Assembly: GCF_048403405.1 (NCBI RefSeq)
Contig: NZ_CP183129.1
Strand: one strand, 5' to 3'
DNA from: Escherichia coli
GTDB taxonomy: Bacteria; Pseudomonadota; Gammaproteobacteria; Enterobacterales; Enterobacteriaceae
Length of the DNA stretch: 64,000 bases
The notes beneath the pieces are model-generated. The model did no database searches. It was not told the DNA's origin and saw only the letters and a program-made list of their open reading frames with translations. This document shows positions 19,276 to 28,376 of the stretch, in pieces. Position 1 is the first letter of the stretch, and every line of letters starts with the position of its first letter. Position numbers and translations under genes: made by a program.

Positions 19276-20076
19276 TTAACCGCGCTTCGCCTTCTGCGTC
19301 GCGGTGGTTTTTCGTGTTGCAGGCTTCCGCGTTGTCTTTTTACTTTTGCTGCTTTCGTCCTGCGCCTGCGGTGCGCTGGCGTCTTCTGGTTCGGCTGCGG
19401 AATCGGCTTTTTTCAGGGCGCGGGAAAGGGTTGCAATCTCGCGTTTCACACCTGCGTTCGGGTTCAGGTGCATCGCTTCGCGCAGCAGCTTCAGTGATAA
19501 GGCCATGTTGTCTGCATCGGTCAGACCACGACGGGCAAAGGCGCACGCCTTGCATAATTTGGCGCGCACTTCGTCCGGCATATCCTGGTTGGCGACAATT
19601 TCCCAAAGTGTGTCCAGTGGTTCGATAAAGGCGGACAAATCCGCGTCGGCATCCGTCCCGGCCTGCGTCAGTACCGGGTTGCAGATTTCTTCGGTCAGTA
19701 CCGTGGCAGCAGTACGGCCAAAGTTATCCGGCATGATGAGGTTGTGACGGACCACATACGCACCAATACGCAGCGCAAGCGGAAGATCGCCGCAGTCAAT
19801 TGCCCACACCATCAGCGTGGCAATCACTTCATCCTGCTGCCCGCCGTCAGCCTCCAGCGTTCCCTCAATCCAGCCGGAAAAATCCGGCAACAACTCTTTT
19901 TTGATGGCGGCTTTCGCGCTTCTGGCCTGTACGCCCTTAAGCCGGGCCTGTGCCAGACGCAGACGATACAGCACCTCTTCATGCGCGGTACGCGCGGCGT
20001 GGTCCACGCCTTCATTCGCCCGGCCTGCGCGCTGTGCCATCACGTTCTGCCAGTGTTGCTGTGCAGGAGTAATCAT
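19276..20076 (-). CDS. M: Terminase small (endonuclease) subunit M
   Basis: 266 aa, position after the major capsid gene; basic C-terminal tail. Confidence 0.8.
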   Translation of the reverse strand: MITPAQQHWQNVMAQRAGRANEGVDHAARTAHEEVLYRLRLAQARLKGVQARSAKAAIKKELLPDFSGWIEGTLEADGGQQDEVIATLMVWAIDCGDLPLALRIGAYVVRHNLIMPDNFGRTAATVLTEEICNPVLTQAGTDADADLSAFIEPLDTLWEIVANQDMPDEVRAKLCKACAFARRGLTDADNMALSLKLLREAMHLNPNAGVKREIATLSRALKKADSAAEPEDASAPQAQDESSKSKKTTRKPATRKTTATQKAKRG

Positions 20077-22188: not shown

Positions 22189-23940
22189 ATGATTCAGGAC
22201 GCTTTTGTGCGCCAGCGTGCGCGACAACTTTACTGGCAGGGTTATCCGCCCGCAGAAATATCACGTCTGATGGGAATAAACCCGAACACGATTTATGCGT
22301 GGAAAAAACGCGACCAGTGGGATGAAACGCCACCCGTGCAGCGTGTCACGCAGTCCATCGATGCGCGCCTCATCCAGCTTACTGAAAAACAGAATAAAAC
22401 AGGCGGTGACTTTAAGGAAATAGACCTGCTGACCCGGCAACTTAAAAAGCTGCATGATGGCCAGCCGGATGTGATGGCCGCAGGAAAGAAAGGCCGGGCG
22501 AAAAAACTCAAAAATCATTTCACGCCGGAACAGATTGCCGCACTGCGGGAAAAAATCATCAGCAGGCTGGAGTGGCATCAGCGGGGCTGGTTTGACTCCC
22601 TGACCCTTTGCAGGGAAGCCGGGATACGTAACAGGATGATCCTGAAATCCCGACAGATTGGGGCGACCTGGTATTTTGCACAGGAAGCACTGCTGATGGC
22701 GCTGCGTGACGATGTGGTGCAACCTTATCAGCGTAACCAGATTTTTTTGTCTGCGTCGCGTCGTCAGGCGTTCCAGTTTAAAAGCATTATTCAGAAGGCC
22801 GCGGCTGAAGTTGATGTGGAGCTGAAAGGGGGCGATAAAATCATCCTCTCCAACGGCGCAGAGCTGCATTTTCTCGGCACTTCTGCTGCGTCGGCACAGT
22901 CCTATACGGGCAATTTTTATTTTGATGAATTCTTCTGGGTCAGTCGCTTTGCTGAACTGCGCAAGGTGGCTGGCGCTATGGCAACCCTCAGCGGACTGCG
23001 GCGCACCTACTTCTCCACGCCATCCACCGAAACGCACGAGGCATACGCCTACTGGAACGGCGACCGCTGGAACGAGAAAAAGGCCACGCATAAACGCCAG
23101 CGTTTTTCTGTGGACTGGAAAACGCTGCATAACGGGCTTATCTGCCCTGACCGGACGTGGCGGCAAATTGTCACGCTGGAAGATGTGGTTAATCACGGCT
23201 GGAAACACACCGATATTGATGAAATTCGTGATGAAAACACCGAAGACGAGTTCCTCAATCTCTATATGTGTGAGTTTGTCCGCGAAGGGGAATCGGCATT
23301 TAACCTGAATATCCTGATTGGCTGCGGTGTTGACGGATACGACGACTGGAAAGACTGGAAACCTTTTGCTCCCCGCCCGATGGGGAATCGCCCGGTATGG
23401 ATTGGGTATGACGCAAACGGCAGCAGTGGCAACGGCGACAGCGGCGCTGTGTCCGTGGTGGTTCCTCCGGCTGTTCCTGGTGGCCGTTTTCGAACGGTGG
23501 AGACGCGACGCGTTCAGGGGCTGGAGTTTGAAGAACAGGCCAGAGTCATTGAAGAGTTCACGTGTCGCTACAACGTGGAACACATCGGCATTGATGTGAC
23601 GGGCGGGAACGGGGAGGCTGTTTATCAGATAGTGAAACGGTTTTTCCCTGCCGCTATTCCGTACACCTTCACGCTGTCATCAAAACGGTCGCTGGTACTG
23701 AAAATGCTGCAAATAATGCGTGCCGGGCGGTGGGAATACGATCGCGCCGAACGCGAGCTGGTCGCGGCCTTTAACGCCGTGCGTAAGGTGAAAACACCGG
23801 GCGGCTTTATCACTTACGAAACGGACCGCGCGAGGGGGATCAGCCACGGCGACCTTGCGTGGGCAACCATGCTTGCTGTCATTAACGAACCAATTGGCGG
23901 CGAAGGAGAAAACGAGCGTTTCACGGTTATGGAGTTCTGA
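22189..23940 (+). CDS. P: Terminase large (ATPase) subunit P
   Basis: 583 aa; N-terminus ...RARQLYWQGYPPAEISRLMGINPNTIYAWKKRDQWD as in P2 gpP. Confidence 0.9.
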   Translation: MIQDAFVRQRARQLYWQGYPPAEISRLMGINPNTIYAWKKRDQWDETPPVQRVTQSIDARLIQLTEKQNKTGGDFKEIDLLTRQLKKLHDGQPDVMAAGKKGRAKKLKNHFTPEQIAALREKIISRLEWHQRGWFDSLTLCREAGIRNRMILKSRQIGATWYFAQEALLMALRDDVVQPYQRNQIFLSASRRQAFQFKSIIQKAAAEVDVELKGGDKIILSNGAELHFLGTSAASAQSYTGNFYFDEFFWVSRFAELRKVAGAMATLSGLRRTYFSTPSTETHEAYAYWNGDRWNEKKATHKRQRFSVDWKTLHNGLICPDRTWRQIVTLEDVVNHGWKHTDIDEIRDENTEDEFLNLYMCEFVREGESAFNLNILIGCGVDGYDDWKDWKPFAPRPMGNRPVWIGYDANGSSGNGDSGAVSVVVPPAVPGGRFRTVETRRVQGLEFEEQARVIEEFTCRYNVEHIGIDVTGGNGEAVYQIVKRFFPAAIPYTFTLSSKRSLVLKMLQIMRAGRWEYDRAERELVAAFNAVRKVKTPGGFITYETDRARGISHGDLAWATMLAVINEPIGGEGENERFTVMEF

Positions 23941-24986
23941 TGAGCAGAAAAAATAAAAAAGTGCGCATGAGTTCACGCATTGATCTCGCTGATGCGCTCA
24001 GGAAAGAATCATCGCTCAGTGCATTCACATTTGATGGTCCTTATCGCCTGACCGGGCATGACCTGCTGGACAATATGTACTGTGCTGATAACGGGCGGTG
24101 GTATGAAACCCCGGTGGACTGGTACGGTCTGGCAAGAGCCGCCCGGCAAACGTCCTGGCATCAGTCTGCGCTTTACTTTAAGCGCAATGTATTACTCGGT
24201 TGCTACATCCCGCACCCGCTGCTTTCCCGGCAGGATTTCTCGGCGCTGGCGCTGGACTGGTTTGTGTTCGGTAACGCATTCCTTGAGCTTCGGAGCAATA
24301 TGCTCGGCGAACCGCTTAAATTACGGCACGCCCTGGCGAAATACATGCGACGCGGAAGCGATCTTGAATCATGGTGGTATGTGCAGGATGGCAAGGACGC
24401 GTTCCAGTTTCGCCCTGGCAAAGTGTGCCACCTGATGAATCCGGATATTAACCAGGAAATCTACGGCATGCCGGAATATCTTGGCGCATTACTCTCGGCC
24501 AGCCTTTCTCATTCGGCGGACATGTTCAGAAAACTGTACTACGACAACGGATCCCACGCCGGGTGCATCATCTACATCGGTGCAGCGCAGGTAAACCGCG
24601 AAAGCATGGACTCCCTGAAAGAAACGTTACAGGGTGCGCGTGGTGGTGGTGCATTTAAAAACGTGCTCATTCATGCGCCCAACGGGGGCAAAGAAGGGGT
24701 GCAAATTTTGCCGTTCCAGCAGATCACCGCAAAAGATGAGTTCATGAATGTTAAGGCGGCATCCCGTGATGATGTGCTGGCTGCGCACCGCGTTCCGCCG
24801 CAACTGATGGGGGCGATGCCGGGCGAAAAAAGTGCGTTTGGTGATGTGGAGAAGGCCGCGCGGGTTTACGCAATTAACGAGCTGATGCCCGTCATGGAGG
24901 CCATGAAGCACATCAATGACTGGCTTGGCGAAGAGGTGATCCGCTTTAACCCTTACGCACTGTTAGACACCCAGCCCACATCCTGA
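23940..24986 (+). CDS. Q: Portal protein Q
   Basis: 348 aa; ...NGRWYETPVDWYGLA...RVPPQLMG...GDVEKAARV...EEVIRFNPYALL as in P2 gpQ. Confidence 0.9.
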   Translation: MSRKNKKVRMSSRIDLADALRKESSLSAFTFDGPYRLTGHDLLDNMYCADNGRWYETPVDWYGLARAARQTSWHQSALYFKRNVLLGCYIPHPLLSRQDFSALALDWFVFGNAFLELRSNMLGEPLKLRHALAKYMRRGSDLESWWYVQDGKDAFQFRPGKVCHLMNPDINQEIYGMPEYLGALLSASLSHSADMFRKLYYDNGSHAGCIIYIGAAQVNRESMDSLKETLQGARGGGAFKNVLIHAPNGGKEGVQILPFQQITAKDEFMNVKAASRDDVLAAHRVPPQLMGAMPGEKSAFGDVEKAARVYAINELMPVMEAMKHINDWLGEEVIRFNPYALLDTQPTS

Positions 24987-25013
24987 CGCGCTTCGCTTGT
25001 CTGCTGCTTCGCC

Positions 25014-25036
25014 GGGGCATAAAAAATTTATGCCCC
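25014..25036 (+). terminator. Hairpin downstream of Q
   Basis: GGGGCATAAA-aaa-TTTATGCCCC inverted repeat just after the Q stop. Confidence 0.4.
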
Positions 25037-25289
25037 GACTCTCCAGCTCCTGTATCAGTCAGATAATTTCACGACGCTTTCCTGCTGATTGCCATCATCG
25101 ACAGTCAGACTCTTACGCAATCCCACCGCGTTGACTGCATGTTCTCGCCGTCTCAGTGCGATTTTGACGGCCTTACCTTTCACCCCATCAAATCAAAAGC
25201 CCTCACGTCTTTTTCACGCTCAGCGTGAGAAATACAGCCATTCTGTTGTGTCTCTGCGACATCGTTCAGGGGATGCTATTTACCCCCTG

Positions 25290-25325
25290 AAACGCGGGCT
25301 GTTCCCCCGTCACCTGCGCGCAGAA
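25290..25325. other. Candidate cos (cohesive-end) region
   Basis: Lies between portal Q and the accessory region, where P2-family cos sits; GC-rich 19-mer ending CAC followed by TGCGCGC resembles the remembered P2 cos end. Low confidence. Confidence 0.3.
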
Positions 25326-25537
25326 AAAGCGCGTTTTTTTGTGCACGCACGGATCCTTGACGGATCCAGCCGCCATGCGGGCCGGAAGGGTAAAAAGTCG
25401 TTCAAAAAAATTGTGCAAATTTGTGCACTTTTGTGCAGGTAAGCATGCCTATATATTTGACCGTGGCTTGCCTTTGATGTAGTTTATACGTCACAAAAAC
25501 CACAAAACGTGGTTATGATTTCTATGAGGGGGTTGAT

Positions 25538-25573
25538 ATGAAAAAAATGTATGATGAATTTGATGGTTTCTAA
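25538..25573 (+). CDS. Candidate 11-codon mini-ORF (MKKMYDEFDGF) upstream of the AT-rich cassette
   Basis: GAGGGGG ribosome-binding site 6 nt upstream of ATG; followed within 20 nt by a strong intrinsic terminator; TATGAT -10-like hexamer at 25513-25518. Confidence 0.35.
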   Translation: MKKMYDEFDGF

Positions 25574-25593
25574 GCTACGTTGACCTCTAATGA

Positions 25594-25620
25594 GGCGGGG
25601 ATTTGCTCCCCGCCTTTTTT
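25594..25620 (+). terminator. Intrinsic terminator / candidate attenuator hairpin
   Basis: GGCGGGGA-tttgc-TCCCCGCC stem followed by T6, 15 nt upstream of the next gene start. Confidence 0.6.
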
Positions 25621-25634
25621 ATGGATGAAATAGG

Positions 25635-26132
25635 ATGAACCCAATAACACTACAAATCATCAGCAATGCTATTGTTCTGCTTGGCGTTTTGGTTGCCATT
25701 GGAACCATTATCTACAATGTGCGTACCGCAAAAAAAACTCAAACGGCCAACTTTCTTTTTGAGAGTCGGCAAGATATGCAATATATAGAGTCATTGCATA
25801 CCCTGAAACAAGTGCATCGTTCAGGCAAATCATTTCGTTCTTATGTTTTTCCTTGTGATGGTTGCATAATAACAGATGAAGAAATGGCCGAGCGTCGAAA
25901 ATTTCAATATATTTTAAATTTTTACGAGCGAGTTGCTGTAAGTATTCGTGAAGGTATTTATGATGAAAAAATGATAAAAAGAACATCTTACACAACAGTT
26001 GTAGAGACATATGATATTGCCGAGCCATTAATTAAAGCAATCAGAGAAAGCATTAATTCGGATACTACATATCAAGAATTCGAATGGTTAGTAAGAAGAT
26101 GGAAAGCTAATCCTTTACGGAAAAACAAATAA
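25635..26132 (+). CDS. Hypothetical protein, single N-terminal transmembrane helix plus ~130-aa soluble domain (unassigned family)
   Basis: 165-aa ORF in strongly AT-rich DNA, where long open frames are unlikely by chance; N-terminal hydrophobic helix ITLQIISNAIVLLGVLVAIGTIIY. Confidence 0.75.
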   Translation: MNPITLQIISNAIVLLGVLVAIGTIIYNVRTAKKTQTANFLFESRQDMQYIESLHTLKQVHRSGKSFRSYVFPCDGCIITDEEMAERRKFQYILNFYERVAVSIREGIYDEKMIKRTSYTTVVETYDIAEPLIKAIRESINSDTTYQEFEWLVRRWKANPLRKNK

Positions 26133-26171
26133 TGTTTTACCCTTTAATTTACAAGTAACACAGGGGGAAGT

Positions 26172-27014
26172 GTGACACAGAATCCGTTTTCATTTTATGA
26201 CTTTTTGGGCTATCTAATTCCAGGTGGGTTATTCCTGTTTATCCTTTTTTTGTTTTCTATTGAAATTAACCCTGTTTATATAGAAGGTATTCTTAACCAT
26301 ATCCTGAAATATAAAGAAATAATAAGTGTATTTATATATGTGGCATTAATCGTTCTATCATATATTTCAGGTCACTTCATATCTATTCTATCATCCTGTT
26401 TAATTGAAAAATACATGAACAGTAAACTTGGGTATCCTTCAATTTATCTGTTTTCTAAAAGAAGCTCCCTGAAAATAAAACGACATAATACTAAGTTCAG
26501 TATAGTTAATTTTATTCGTGGAGTTTTTTTATTTCCTGTATCAGCTTTTGATAAAGCAGAACATCATAAAACCACACTGCATTCTATACTTATTAAAGTC
26601 TTTTGGCCGCAAATACGAGATGGTTATATAAATGTTTTTTCTGTATCTACGCTATATCGACGTAAGGGCTTGAGGGGCAATCTTTTTCGCCTTGCTTATC
26701 ATTATGTGTATGAACATTCTAAAAATCATCAGGTGAAAATGCAAAACTATGTTGCTTTGTATGGTTTTTGTAGAAACATTACATTTGTTTTTCTCGCTTC
26801 AGTCTGGTTGCTTATGTTCCTGCTCCTTCTATCCTTTTTAATAGATATAAATATCAGACTGTTACCTTTTTGTTTTCTTCTCTTGTTTTGTATTGCTGTA
26901 TCCCGAGTATTTTATTATGGTTTTGTTAAGTATTATCGCCGCTATTCTCTTGAGGTTTTAATGGCATTTGCGGTACTTCAGCACGATAAAAAAACTTCGG
27001 CAATTTCATCATGA
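26172..27014 (+). CDS. Hypothetical polytopic inner-membrane protein (unassigned family)
   Basis: 280-aa ORF, GTG start after CAGGGGGAAG ribosome-binding site; several long hydrophobic segments at the N- and C-termini; AT-rich; 39 nt downstream of the preceding gene. Confidence 0.75.
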   Translation: MTQNPFSFYDFLGYLIPGGLFLFILFLFSIEINPVYIEGILNHILKYKEIISVFIYVALIVLSYISGHFISILSSCLIEKYMNSKLGYPSIYLFSKRSSLKIKRHNTKFSIVNFIRGVFLFPVSAFDKAEHHKTTLHSILIKVFWPQIRDGYINVFSVSTLYRRKGLRGNLFRLAYHYVYEHSKNHQVKMQNYVALYGFCRNITFVFLASVWLLMFLLLLSFLIDINIRLLPFCFLLLFCIAVSRVFYYGFVKYYRRYSLEVLMAFAVLQHDKKTSAISS

Positions 27015-27097: not shown

Positions 27098-27412
27098 TTA
27101 TTCTGGGAATAAGGTCTGAATATTCTTTTTTATTCTATAAAAATTGCATTCAACTCCGCTAGGCTGATTATCCTGGTATGTTTCCTTGATGCTAACGGTA
27201 TTGAAGGGGAGGTTGTCCTCTGGCCATTCGGCCATCCAGTAGGCAAATGCTGGGTTGCGCTTTATGAGCGCTAGCCCAGCCAGAAAGGCCGCGCGTTGCG
27301 CGCGGCTGCGTTCGGAGGCTGGTAGGCTATCGAGGTAATTGCACGCCTCCTGTTCACTCTTGACGGCGGCGGGCTTCAGATAGAAACTTATCCGTCTGGT
27401 TGGTGTCGTCAT
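27098..27412 (-). CDS. ParR/StbB-like partition adaptor
   Basis: Start trimmed to MTTPTRRISFYLKP...; YLDSLPASERSRAQRAAFLAGLAL resembles the R1 ParR motif as remembered; lies directly downstream of the ParM-like gene. Confidence 0.65.
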   Translation of the reverse strand: MTTPTRRISFYLKPAAVKSEQEACNYLDSLPASERSRAQRAAFLAGLALIKRNPAFAYWMAEWPEDNLPFNTVSIKETYQDNQPSGVECNFYRIKKNIQTLFPE

Positions 27413-27416
27413 TGGT

Positions 27417-28376
27417 TTACTCCTTGTCCATTGCGTACAGCCCATTAACCAGAGCAAACTGTGGCACCCCGTCCGCGATGAAAGTCGCATTAACTCCGCA
27501 GACTTCGCGGATAGCGGGTGCCACAATCTCCGCCCCTCCACCGACAACCATCACCCGCCCGTAACCCGAAAAAACCGCCAGCGCGCGGATCACGCGTTGT
27601 TTCAGTGTTTCTTCCTTTTCACGAATAACCGCCATCAGGCTGGCGTAATGCGCGTCATTGTGGATGTGCTGGCGCAGCCAGGCTTCATCATGGCGATGTT
27701 CGATAATGGTATTGGCGATGTGGTGACTGGTGCGCATACCGTTAGTGGCCATCACCGACAGTACGGCATCGGCCATCAGGGAAACGCCTACGTGTGGATC
27801 GCAAAACACCTGGCTGATACCTGCCAGTTGCCCTTGAACCTTTGCCACATCCAGCGTGGTTCCGCCTAAATCCACAATCAGCAGGGATTCAAACGGACTC
27901 ATGTCAGCCAGTGCTTTAAAGCCAGCCGGAATGGATTCAGGCATAACCCGCACGTTACGGATAGTGAATGCTTCGCCGTTCTGGTACTCCACCGAGCGCA
28001 TAACGTTCGCTTTTTTGCGGTTGATGTTGGCCATGTCCGGCTGTGCGTTTGTCTCGAAATACTCGCTCAGTGGCAGGGTGACAACCACATCCACCTCTTG
28101 TGGCGTGATGCCTGATTTGACCAGCGCGTGATGAATGGCGATTACATTCACATCGCTGTACTGGTATTGCGTGTCGGTCGTCTGGACAAAGCGATCGCTG
28201 ACCGGATCAAAACCATAGCGCACGCCATCAAGCATGTAGTTCGCGGGCTGCATGCCACCGAACGGCGCAGACCATTCCGACTTGAAGCTGTTCGGGCTGA
28301 TGGCGTTGCGGCGTTCGCCATTCTCAGTCCATGCCAGCTTGATGTTGGTGGAGCCGTCGTCGATACAAATTTTCAT
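27417..28376 (-). CDS. ParM/StbA-like actin-type partition ATPase
   Basis: 319 aa; IDDGSTNIKL, ISPNSF, QYSDVNV..HHAL, RKKAN, PESIPAG, LIVDLGGTTLD, GVSL, VVGGGAE and LVNG motifs as in plasmid R1 ParM (from memory). Confidence 0.8.
   Translation of the reverse strand: MKICIDDGSTNIKLAWTENGERRNAISPNSFKSEWSAPFGGMQPANYMLDGVRYGFDPVSDRFVQTTDTQYQYSDVNVIAIHHALVKSGITPQEVDVVVTLPLSEYFETNAQPDMANINRKKANVMRSVEYQNGEAFTIRNVRVMPESIPAGFKALADMSPFESLLIVDLGGTTLDVAKVQGQLAGISQVFCDPHVGVSLMADAVLSVMATNGMRTSHHIANTIIEHRHDEAWLRQHIHNDAHYASLMAVIREKEETLKQRVIRALAVFSGYGRVMVVGGGAEIVAPAIREVCGVNATFIADGVPQFALVNGLYAMDKE

What the first reader, a model, noticed from the sequence alone, without database searches (positions are those of the whole stretch)
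25405..25440. Three TTGTGCA repeats at exact 10-bp spacing upstream of the cassette promoter
TTGTGCAaat-TTGTGCActt-TTGTGCAgg (25409-25436) puts three identical heptamers on the same face of the helix, a typical arrangement for a multimeric DNA-binding protein (regulator iterons) or terminase/IHF-type binding near cos. A fourth related copy (TTGTGCACGCAC) lies about 60 bp upstream.
Basis: seen in the sequence. Interest (0 to 1): 0.35.

Follow-up and report, generated by a model that had tools for sequence, protein, structure and literature searches.

The report
Phased repeats ending a phage cos site
The three TTGTGCA repeats are real and are most likely the outer edge of the DNA-packaging (cos) signal of a P2-like prophage, conserved in related phages and in satellites that borrow their capsids; they are probably not a switch for the neighbouring cargo genes.

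Summary
TTGTGCA occurs at 25411, 25421 and 25431, with a fourth copy at 25339. This is the only triple heptamer at a period of 8-13 bp in the window, and none arose in 300 simulated windows.

The window is a P88-like (Xuanwuvirus, P2-family) prophage. The repeats lie about 100 bp from a 19-mer homologous to the P2 cohesive end, between the portal gene Q and the variable cargo hotspot.

- **Conservation:** among 48 relatives under 85% identical, information content peaks at the cos 19-mer, at the T-run plus proximal copy, and at the A-tract plus three repeats. It falls to zero right after base 25437.
- **Hotspot boundary:** in most sampled E. coli hits with a different cargo, homology stops within one base of that position.
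- **Other phages:** P2, 186, PSP3 and satellite P4 carry ATGCA copies at the same distances from cos.
- **Satellite:** a portal-less, terminase-less P4-like satellite shares with the window only 25278-25437.

Best reading: a cosB-like terminase-recognition subsite. The regulator-iteron reading is not supported.

This is a known kind of element, and moderately interesting.

The parts
25278..25437 (.). Whole cos module: the only stretch shared between this prophage and a portal-less, terminase-less P4-like satellite
   Evidence: Alignment A4. Homology to satellites L272 and L282 starts near 25273-25278 and ends at 25437.
25296..25314 (.). Putative 19-nt cohesive-end sequence (cosN equivalent), GGGCTGTTCCCCCGTCACC
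   Evidence: 13 of 19 positions match the reverse complement of the annotated P2 cosL/cosR, in the same position relative to the hairpin, T-run and proximal repeat. Information content is high in 48 relatives. The physical ends are not mapped.
25316..25340 (+). Hairpin (GCGCGC-loop-GCGCG) plus T7 run directly after cos
   Evidence: Terminator-like hit. The same hairpin plus T-run follows cos in P2, P4 and 186. It is part of the published 55-bp core (PMC5694545, PMC3931495).
25339..25345 (+). Proximal (fourth) TTGTGCA copy
   Evidence: An NTGCA copy lies at +26/+28 from the cos end in 76 unique relatives. P2, P4 and 186 have AATGCA at this position.
25346..25403 (.). Spacer, variable in sequence but nearly constant in length
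   Evidence: Information content is low. It has diverged in the satellite while its flanks are identical. The proximal-to-distal distance is 72 bp in 59 of 76 unique sequences.
25404..25410 (+). Conserved A7 tract in front of the first distal repeat
   Evidence: It forms an inverted pair with the T7G at 25334-25341 (I8).
25411..25417 (+). Distal repeat 1, TTGTGCA
25421..25427 (+). Distal repeat 2, TTGTGCA (GTGCAC palindrome)
25431..25437 (+). Distal repeat 3, TTGTGCA: the last conserved bases before the cargo hotspot
   Evidence: In more distant relatives this copy is degenerate (TTGCA, ATGCA or TGCG).
22189..23940 (+). gpP, large terminase. Its N-terminal helix-turn-helix (residues 6-63, nt 22204-22377) is the candidate reader of the repeats
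   Evidence: Pfam Terminase_5, HTH_23, Terminase_6N and Terminase_6C. The recognition-helix region differs by repeat type. AF2 model with pLDDT 82.
19276..20076 (-). gpM, small terminase: the alternative reader
   Evidence: Pfam PF05944. 37% identical to P2 gpM. No solved relative.
23940..24986 (+). gpQ portal gene, which anchors the synteny
25438..27014 (+). Variable cargo (not part of the element). It contains candidate promoters, an 11-codon ORF, a terminator, a DUF4760 gene (25635-26132) and an ORF at 26172-27014
   Evidence: It is shared by only 279 of 1123 E. coli genomes that carry this cos type.

Best explanation
The three phased TTGTGCA copies, their A-tract and the proximal fourth copy are the recognition part of the phage's cos site, analogous to cosB. 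They are not a gene-regulatory element.

Proposed mechanism:
1. Several terminase protomers bind the NTGCA copies, which lie on one face of the helix at 10-bp phasing. The proximal copy lies 72 bp (about 7 turns) away.
2. The phased A/T tracts and the fixed-length spacer let the DNA bend or wrap, so that the complex sits over the 19-nt cohesive-end sequence about 100 bp away.
3. Terminase then nicks there and starts packaging.

Because everything up to the last base of the third repeat is needed in cis, it marks the exact inner boundary of the neighbouring cargo/defence hotspot.

The most concrete candidate reader is the N-terminal helix-turn-helix of large terminase gpP. Small terminase gpM is the alternative.

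Shown: position, conservation, spacing, and sharing with satellites. Inferred: terminase binding, which subunit binds, bending, and necessity for packaging.
For: (1) Context. The prophage is P88-like and the order is gpO-gpP-gpQ-cos-cargo-ParM-gpA. A 19-mer matching the P2 cohesive end at 13 of 19 positions lies at 25296-25314, followed by the same hairpin plus T-run as in P2.

(2) Same architecture in distant relatives. P2, P4 and 186 have ATGCA at +44 and at +116, +126 and +138/139 from the cos start. The window has GTGCA at +46, +118, +128 and +138 when counted from 25296; itself counted from 25297 and printed 45, 117, 127 and 137. PSP3 has three ATGCA copies, and phiCTX has CTGCR copies in the equivalent place.

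(3) Footprint. In 48 sequences under 85% identical, information content peaks at cos, at the T-run plus proximal copy, and at the A-tract plus three repeats. It drops to zero after 25437. The proximal-to-distal spacing is 72 bp in 59 of 76 unique sequences although the spacer sequence varies.

(4) Boundary. Phage records, and most sampled E. coli hits that lack this cargo, stop aligning within one base of 25437.

(5) Satellites. P4 shares only cos with P2 (PMC9122126) and has the repeats. A P4-like satellite has Int, AlpA, a Toprim primase, an Ogr/Delta-like protein and a P2-family capsid homologue, but no portal or terminase. It shares only 25278-25437 with the window: the repeats are identical and the spacer has diverged.

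(6) Phage-specific reader. The motif differs (ATGCA against GTGCA) between phages of the same host. The gpP HTH recognition helix is N-x-N-T-[IVL]-[YH]-[AS]-W in all 36 distinct GTGCA-type N-termini, KR[PA]TVQSWKQR[DE] in the ATGCA-type loci (14 of 16 distinct N-termini exactly KRPTVQSWKQRD), and KDKTLHSWKDRD in phiCTX.
Against: - No binding or packaging experiment is available here.
- The physical ends of this phage type are not mapped, so cos is placed by homology only.
- The open literature I could read describes only a 55-bp conserved core that ends at the proximal copy (PMC5694545, PMC3931495, PMC9594776). From memory, unverified, the published minimal P2/P4 cos was about 125 bp. That might exclude the distal copies, in which case they would enhance rather than be essential.
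- The helix/motif covariation rests on only three or four clades and is confounded by shared ancestry. One GTGCA-type phage has H instead of Y in the helix without a change of motif.
- The fold search for the gpP N-terminus gave no significant hit.
- In P2 the third copy overlaps the -35 hexamer I infer for the old promoter from the annotated old-tin mRNA starts, so a secondary promoter role exists in at least one phage.
Confidence: 0.75

Rival explanations
1. The repeats are operator sites (iterons) where a phage or cargo-encoded regulator controls the promoter of the downstream cassette. Alternatively, the third copy serves as the -35 of an outward promoter.
For: The repeats lie 20-50 bp upstream of candidate cassette promoters: TTGACC-17-TAGTTT at 25457-25485 (by eye) and GTCACA-18-TATGAT at 25490-25519. 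In P2 the third ATGCA copy overlaps the TTGAAT -35 that I infer from the annotated old-tin mRNA starts.
Against: - The repeats are conserved independently of the cargo. More than 40 distinct flanks follow them, many beginning with the terminator of a convergent gene, and only 4 of 48 have a -10 at 16-18 bp.
- They are also present in P4 and in the new satellite, where no such cassette follows.
- Their distance to cos, not to any promoter, is what is conserved.
- No known P2-family regulator motif matches.
Confidence: 0.06
2. The repeats and phased A/T tracts are an architectural element of cos. They would be curved DNA, or a site for a host nucleoid protein such as IHF, Fis, HU or H-NS, that helps terminase without being read by it.
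For: A7, AAATTT and TTTT tracts are phased with the repeats. Lambda cosB needs IHF (established knowledge). The fixed spacer length suggests a requirement for looping or wrapping.
Against: - There is no IHF consensus in 25270-25460.
- The conserved core is the pentamer NTGCA rather than the A/T tracts.
- Its first base differs between phages of the same host (P2 against P88-like, both in E. coli), which a single host protein would not explain.
Confidence: 0.12
3. The third repeat is a recombination site or boundary that mediates cassette exchange at the hotspot, which would explain why every cargo starts right after it.
For: The junction is sharp: more than 40 different cargo flanks diverge immediately after TTGTGCA. 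Rousset et al. speculate that cos ends promote exchange at this hotspot (PMC9122126).
Against: - No recombinase is linked to the site, and no second matching site was seen at the other end of the cargo in the sequences read.
- The sharp edge is equally expected if the repeat is the last base under selection.
- The same repeats occur in P4, where the variable hotspot lies on the other side of cos.
Confidence: 0.05

Closest known systems
cos site of P2, 186 and satellite P4 (55-bp conserved core; Ziermann & Calendar 1990, cited in PMC9122126, PMC5694545, PMC3931495)
   Same: The position is the same, between portal gene Q and the right-end hotspot. There is a homologous GC-rich 19-mer, the same hairpin plus T-run, an NTGCA copy ending the core, and three further NTGCA copies at the same distance.
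   Different: The pentamer is GTGCA instead of ATGCA, with strict 10+10 bp spacing instead of 10+12/13. The 19-mer differs at 6 positions. The distal copies lie outside the 55-bp core that the papers I could read describe.
Lambda cosB (R3-I1-R2-R1 bound by gpNu1, bent by IHF)
   Same: Several short repeats sit beside the nicking site, spread over about 120 bp, and are read by a helix-turn-helix of terminase. The arrangement implies DNA bending. This comparison is by established knowledge; nothing was tested here.
   Different: There is no sequence similarity and no IHF site. The repeats are 5-7 bp rather than 16 bp. The candidate HTH is fused to the large subunit gpP rather than the small one. 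P2 is reported to package from monomeric circles (my own knowledge).
phiCTX cos region with annotated R4-R6 repeats (NC_003278)
   Same: The depositors annotate a repeat-containing region spanning cos. CTGCR copies occupy positions equivalent to the NTGCA copies.
   Different: The motif and spacing differ, attP/int lie next to cos, and the function of those repeats is not stated in the record.
P2 old promoter
   Same: In P2 the third ATGCA copy overlaps the -35 hexamer I infer for the promoter whose mRNA starts are annotated.
   Different: In the window and in most relatives no -10 follows at the right distance. The cassette promoters lie in the variable DNA.

Membership tests
P2-family cos site (packaging signal) | Lies between portal gene Q and the gpA-side hotspot, next to a GC-rich 19-nt sequence homologous to the P2 cohesive end | tested here: met
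   Synteny. The 19-mer at 25296-25314 matches P2 at 13 of 19 positions, with the same following hairpin and T-run.
P2-family cos site (packaging signal) | Conserved in related phages while the flanking DNA varies | tested here: met
   conservation peaks on the repeats and falls to zero after 25437.
P2-family cos site (packaging signal) | Shared with satellites that encode no terminase and depend on the helper's | tested here: met
   P4 carries the ATGCA version. The satellite L272/L299 carries the GTGCA version and shares only 25278-25437.
P2-family cos site (packaging signal) | Staggered cleavage giving 19-nt cohesive ends at this place | not testable with these tools
   No virion DNA or read-terminus data are available. 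The ends of the one linear record, LR595891, fall in the variable spacer and look arbitrary.
P2-family cos site (packaging signal) | The repeats are required in cis for packaging | not testable with these tools
   This needs cosmid transduction or deletion assays. The primary paper on the minimal P2/P4 cos is not held.
cosB-type terminase-binding subsite | Direct binding of a terminase subunit to the repeats | not testable with these tools
   Only indirect evidence exists: gpP has an N-terminal HTH whose recognition helix differs by repeat type. The fold search was not significant.
cosB-type terminase-binding subsite | IHF site between the repeats, as in lambda | tested here: not met
   No WATCAR-N4-TTR match in 25270-25460 on either strand.
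Operator/iterons of a transcription regulator for the cassette | Fixed spatial relation to a promoter that travels with the repeats | tested here: not met
   Only 4 of 48 flanks have a -10 at 16-18 bp. Cargo orientation varies. The candidate promoters lie in variable DNA.
Operator/iterons of a transcription regulator for the cassette | Match to known P2-family or host regulator sites (Cox box, Ogr/B dyad, LexA, CRP, NtrC, sigma-54, DnaA) | tested here: not met
   No exact consensus match. The consensus strings were taken from my own knowledge.
parC centromere of the ParMR system encoded nearby | Repeats immediately upstream of parM, present only in phages that carry ParMR | tested here: not met
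   The repeats lie about 1.7 kb from the partition genes, beyond the cargo. They occur in P2, 186 and P4, whose cos-proximal annotated regions list no ParM.

The most novel reading that the evidence does not exclude
The distal three-copy NTGCA array may be a so far undescribed, essential second half of the Peduoviridae cos site, read by the helix-turn-helix fused to large terminase gpP. On this reading its first base (A, G or C), together with the recognition helix, defines packaging-specificity classes. Those classes would decide which satellites a helper can mobilise (P4 with P2/186; the capsid-homologue satellite with P88-like phages). The array would also fix, to the base, where the defence hotspot begins.
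Probability: 0.3. Interest if true: 0.55.

Novelty: new member of a known kind. Interest (0 to 1): 0.4.

Why it matters
- **Hotspot boundary.** It gives a base-precise inner boundary (25437/25438) for the P2-family defence hotspot, which helps in delimiting cargo systems automatically.
- **Longer cos.** It suggests that the functional cos of P2-like phages is about 160 bp rather than the 55-bp core usually quoted. This matters for designing P2/P4 cosmids and transducing particles.
- **Testable specificity code.** It offers a simple code (NTGCA type against gpP helix) for predicting helper-satellite compatibility.
- **Limits.** It does not reveal a new kind of biology. Repeats that guide terminase next to cos are a classic theme.

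Tried and rejected
- **Enrichment of the heptamer in the window:** none, 15 against 15.0 expected. Only the arrangement is special.
- **Known RNA families in 24900-25800:** only a sub-threshold SorX hit at 25568-25620.
- **Sigma-70 promoter using the repeats:** none found. The third repeat as a general -35 is rejected.
- **Consensus scans for IHF, sigma-54, Ogr/B dyad, Cox box, DnaA, CRP, LexA and NtrC:** no match. TGT-N12-ACT is one base short of the Ogr dyad (inspection), and P2-type repeats lack it.
- **parC centromere for the nearby ParMR:** rejected on position and on presence in ParM-less phages.
- **Hairpin formed by GTGCA/TGCAC:** a by-product of the palindromic TGCA core.
- **P4-like satellites of E. 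coli as carriers of the GTGCA type:** the sampled rows all match the P4/P2-type cos region at 94.7-99.7% identity. The GTGCA type was instead found in a different satellite through an exact-word scan.
- **Literature:** eight searches and eight papers found no description of the distal repeats. Ziermann & Calendar 1990 and the Christie & Calendar review are not held.
- **Structure:** the AF2 model of gpP 1-125 is confident (pLDDT 82), but Foldseek against the PDB gave nothing below E = 0.34. gpM has no solved relative.
- **HP1:** it has a different cos layout and was not comparable.

Full report
**1. The observation**

Reading 25000-26000 and a pattern search place TTGTGCA at 25411, 25421 and 25431 on the + strand, exactly 10 bp apart. 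A fourth copy is at 25339, 72 bp before the first. The heptamer is not over-represented in the window as a whole (15 matches, 15.0 expected). Three identical 7-mers at any period of 8-13 bp occur only here in 64 kb, and never occurred in 300 Markov simulations of the window. The feature is real.

**2. Where it lies**

The ORFs and Pfam hits give this order:
- gpM small terminase (19276-20076, - strand)
- capsid and scaffold genes
- gpP large terminase (22189-23940, + strand)
- gpQ portal (23940-24986, + strand)
- 650 bp of non-coding DNA holding the repeats
- two AT-rich cargo genes (a DUF4760 gene at 25635-26132 and an ORF at 26172-27014)
- ParM and a long gpA replication protein on the - strand

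blastn against phage records identifies a P88-like phage (Xuanwuvirus, Peduoviridae). This is the P2 layout with cos between Q and the old/tin hotspot, which is a known hotspot of anti-phage systems (PMC9122126).

**3. The repeats belong to the backbone, not to the cassette**

- In ten phage records the alignment to window 25000-25640 stops at query base 438, which is window 25437, the last A of the third repeat.
- A seven-sequence alignment shows CAAAAAAATTGTGCAAAyTTGTGCACTnTyGTGCA nearly invariant, even in Enterobacter phage phiT5282H (Novemvirus, 74% identical nearby). Unrelated sequence follows immediately.
- Of 5426 complete E. coli genomes, 1123 carry this region and only 279 share the cargo. 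In an evenly spaced sample of 60 records, 40 end at query 148-149 (window 25437-25438). Three end at 153, one at 139 and one at 321, and 15 run the full length.
- In P88 the first cargo genes point towards the repeats.
- Among 48 distinct downstream flanks only four have a plausible -10 hexamer 16-18 bp after the third repeat, and many start with a terminator hairpin.
- The candidate cassette promoters, TTGACC-17-TAGTTT at 25457-25485 (by eye) and GTCACA-18-TATGAT, lie in the variable DNA.

**4. It is part of cos**

The P2 record annotates its 19-nt cohesive ends. Read in the window's orientation, P2 shows:
- the cos 19-mer GTGCTTTCCCCGCCTCGCC
- a hairpin plus TTTT
- AATGCA
- about 70 bp of spacer
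- AATGCA-N5-ATGCA-N7-AATGCA

The window shows GGGCTGTTCCCCCGTCACC (25296-25314, 13 of 19 identical), a hairpin plus T7, TTGTGCA, 58 bp of spacer, A7, and the three repeats.

Counted from the first base of the 19-mer, the pentamers start at these positions (that script counted the window from 25297 and so printed 45, 117, 127 and 137):

| Genome | Proximal copy | Distal copies |
|---|---|---|
| P2 | 44 | 116, 126, 138 |
| P4 | 44 | 116, 126, 139 |
| 186 (adding the 19-mer) | 44 | 116, 126, 139 |
| Window | 46 | 118, 128, 138 |

PSP3 has three ATGCA copies. Pseudomonas phage phiCTX has CTGCR copies in the equivalent place, inside a region its depositors annotate as containing repeats R4-R6. P4 shares only the cos signal with P2 (PMC9122126), so finding the triplet in P4 ties it to packaging.

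**5. Breadth and footprint**

Two scans of IMG/VR with portal alignments gave 160 loci.
- Nearly all GTGCA-type loci (portal identity 55-100%) keep the cos 19-mer, hairpin, T-run plus GTGCA, a variable spacer, an A-tract and three TGCA-centred copies at 10-bp phase. The third copy is often degenerate.
- The proximal-to-distal distance is 72 bp in 59 of 76 unique sequences.
- In a MAFFT alignment of 48 sequences under 85% identical, information content peaks at 25296-25322, 25334-25345 and 25405-25437. It is low in the spacer and zero after 25437.
- P2-type loci (portal 78-100% identical to P2) keep ATGCA-N5-ATGCA plus a third copy in otherwise very different sequence.

**6. An independent satellite test**

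An exact scan of IMG/VR for TTGTGCAAATTTGTGCA returned 120 loci, 93 of them beside a portal gene. Four loci (L272, L209, L282, L223), and the E. coli chromosome region NZ_CP033635.1 1332184-1344457, are a roughly 12-kb integrative element. It carries a P4-type integrase, AlpA, an Icd-like protein, a Toprim primase, a second integrase, an Ogr/Delta-like zinc finger, a coiled-coil protein, a P2-family capsid homologue and MazEF. It has no portal or terminase, and it occurs in 57 E. coli genomes.

Its only similarity to the window is 25278-25437. The cos 19-mer, the proximal copy, the A-tract and the three repeats are identical, the spacer has diverged, and homology ends at the third repeat. This repeats the P2/P4 relationship for the GTGCA type. 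It delimits the functional module at about 160 bp.

**7. Who reads it**

The motif differs between phages of one host (ATGCA in P2/186, GTGCA in P88-like phages), which argues for a phage protein rather than a host factor. No IHF or other standard site is present.

gpP carries an N-terminal helix-turn-helix (Terminase_5/HTH_23, residues 6-63). The 186 record notes the same. An AF2 model is confident (pLDDT 82) and shows three short helices followed by two long ones. Its PDB matches are weak, with a best E of 0.34, and are mostly HTH regulators.

The putative recognition helix differs by repeat type:
- N-x-N-T-[IVL]-[YH]-[AS]-W in all 36 distinct GTGCA-type N-termini, including a divergent one
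- KR[PA]TVQSWKQR[DE] in the ATGCA-type loci, exactly KRPTVQSWKQRD in 14 of 16 distinct N-termini
- KDKTLHSWKDRD in phiCTX

This is suggestive only, because the clades are few and linked by descent. gpM (PF05944) is 37% identical to P2 gpM, has no recognisable DNA-binding domain and no solved relative. It remains an alternative.

**8. Mechanism proposed**

Terminase protomers would bind the phased copies on one helical face. The A/T tracts and the fixed-length spacer would allow bending or wrapping, so that the proximal copy and the nicking site are engaged. The 19-nt staggered cut follows. The position, conservation, spacing and satellite sharing are shown. Binding, the subunit involved, bending and necessity are inferred. 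Which DNA end enters the capsid first is not addressed by my data.

**9. Comparison with what is known, and novelty**

The kind of element is classic: cos accessory repeats, as in lambda cosB and the P2/P4 cos. The papers I could read mention only a 55-bp core that ends at the proximal copy (PMC5694545, PMC3931495, PMC9594776). I found no description of the distal triplet, but the primary paper (Ziermann & Calendar 1990) is not held. My unverified memory of a minimal fragment of about 125 bp leaves open whether the triplet is essential or only stimulatory. I therefore file this as a new member of a known kind, with moderate interest.

**10. Rivals**

- Operator or promoter function for the cassette: 0.06.
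- Purely architectural or host-factor site: 0.12.
- Recombination site for cassette exchange: 0.05.

The first is contradicted by cargo-independent conservation and by the satellites. The second is contradicted by the lineage-specific first base. The third has no supporting feature beyond the sharp junction, which selection on the last essential base explains equally well.

Noticed in passing
L272 (whole locus); L299 8365-20638 (NZ_CP033635.1 1332184-1344457): A roughly 12-kb P4-like satellite carries Int, AlpA, an Icd-like protein, a Toprim primase, a second integrase, an Ogr/Delta-like zinc finger, a coiled-coil protein and a 449-aa P2-family capsid homologue with an N-terminal extension, plus MazEF. 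It has no portal or terminase. It carries the P88-type cos module and occurs in 57 of 5426 E. coli genomes.
   Followed up: partly
window 25526-25616: An 11-codon ORF (MKKMYDEFDGF, 25538-25573) has a good Shine-Dalgarno sequence (GAGGGGG). A strong terminator hairpin (25592-25616) follows it, just upstream of the DUF4760 gene. The layout looks like a leader peptide or attenuator.
   Followed up: no
L019, L028, L029, L031, L034 (between the Q stop and cos); L001 2388-2912: There is a second variable spot between the portal gene and cos. In these relatives cos lies 886-938 nt after Q instead of 312 nt, and PV468777 has a 525-nt gene there.
   Followed up: no
L010 11480-11530 (P4): In P4 the second and third ATGCA copies form the stem of a hairpin (GCCATGCA...TGCATGGC followed by T's) that looks like the terminator after psu. 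One sequence may therefore serve two purposes.
   Followed up: no
L095 (HP1 right end, last 120 nt): Haemophilus phage HP1, whose cos layout is different, has three copies of ATTTTCCGTG near its right end. This may be an analogous repeat set.
   Followed up: no
L003/L004 (LR595891 ends) = window 25392/25393: The linear record of P88_4B11 is opened inside the variable spacer of the cos module, not at the predicted cohesive end. This is probably an arbitrary assembly break.
   Followed up: no
window 25334-25341 and 25403-25410: T7G and CA7 form an inverted pair that brackets the spacer between the proximal and distal repeats. Both are conserved.
   Followed up: no
window 27098-28376: Plasmid-type partition genes (ParM plus a small partner) sit between the cargo and gpA in this phage group. 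P2 has nothing comparable in the cos-proximal region I read.
   Followed up: no
window 25445-25462 vs L005 3450-3470: The cargo of the window and that of Citrobacter phage Shae_phiSM share a short block, CCATATATTTGAC (a -35-like TTGAC), although the genes differ. This suggests a portable promoter module.
   Followed up: no
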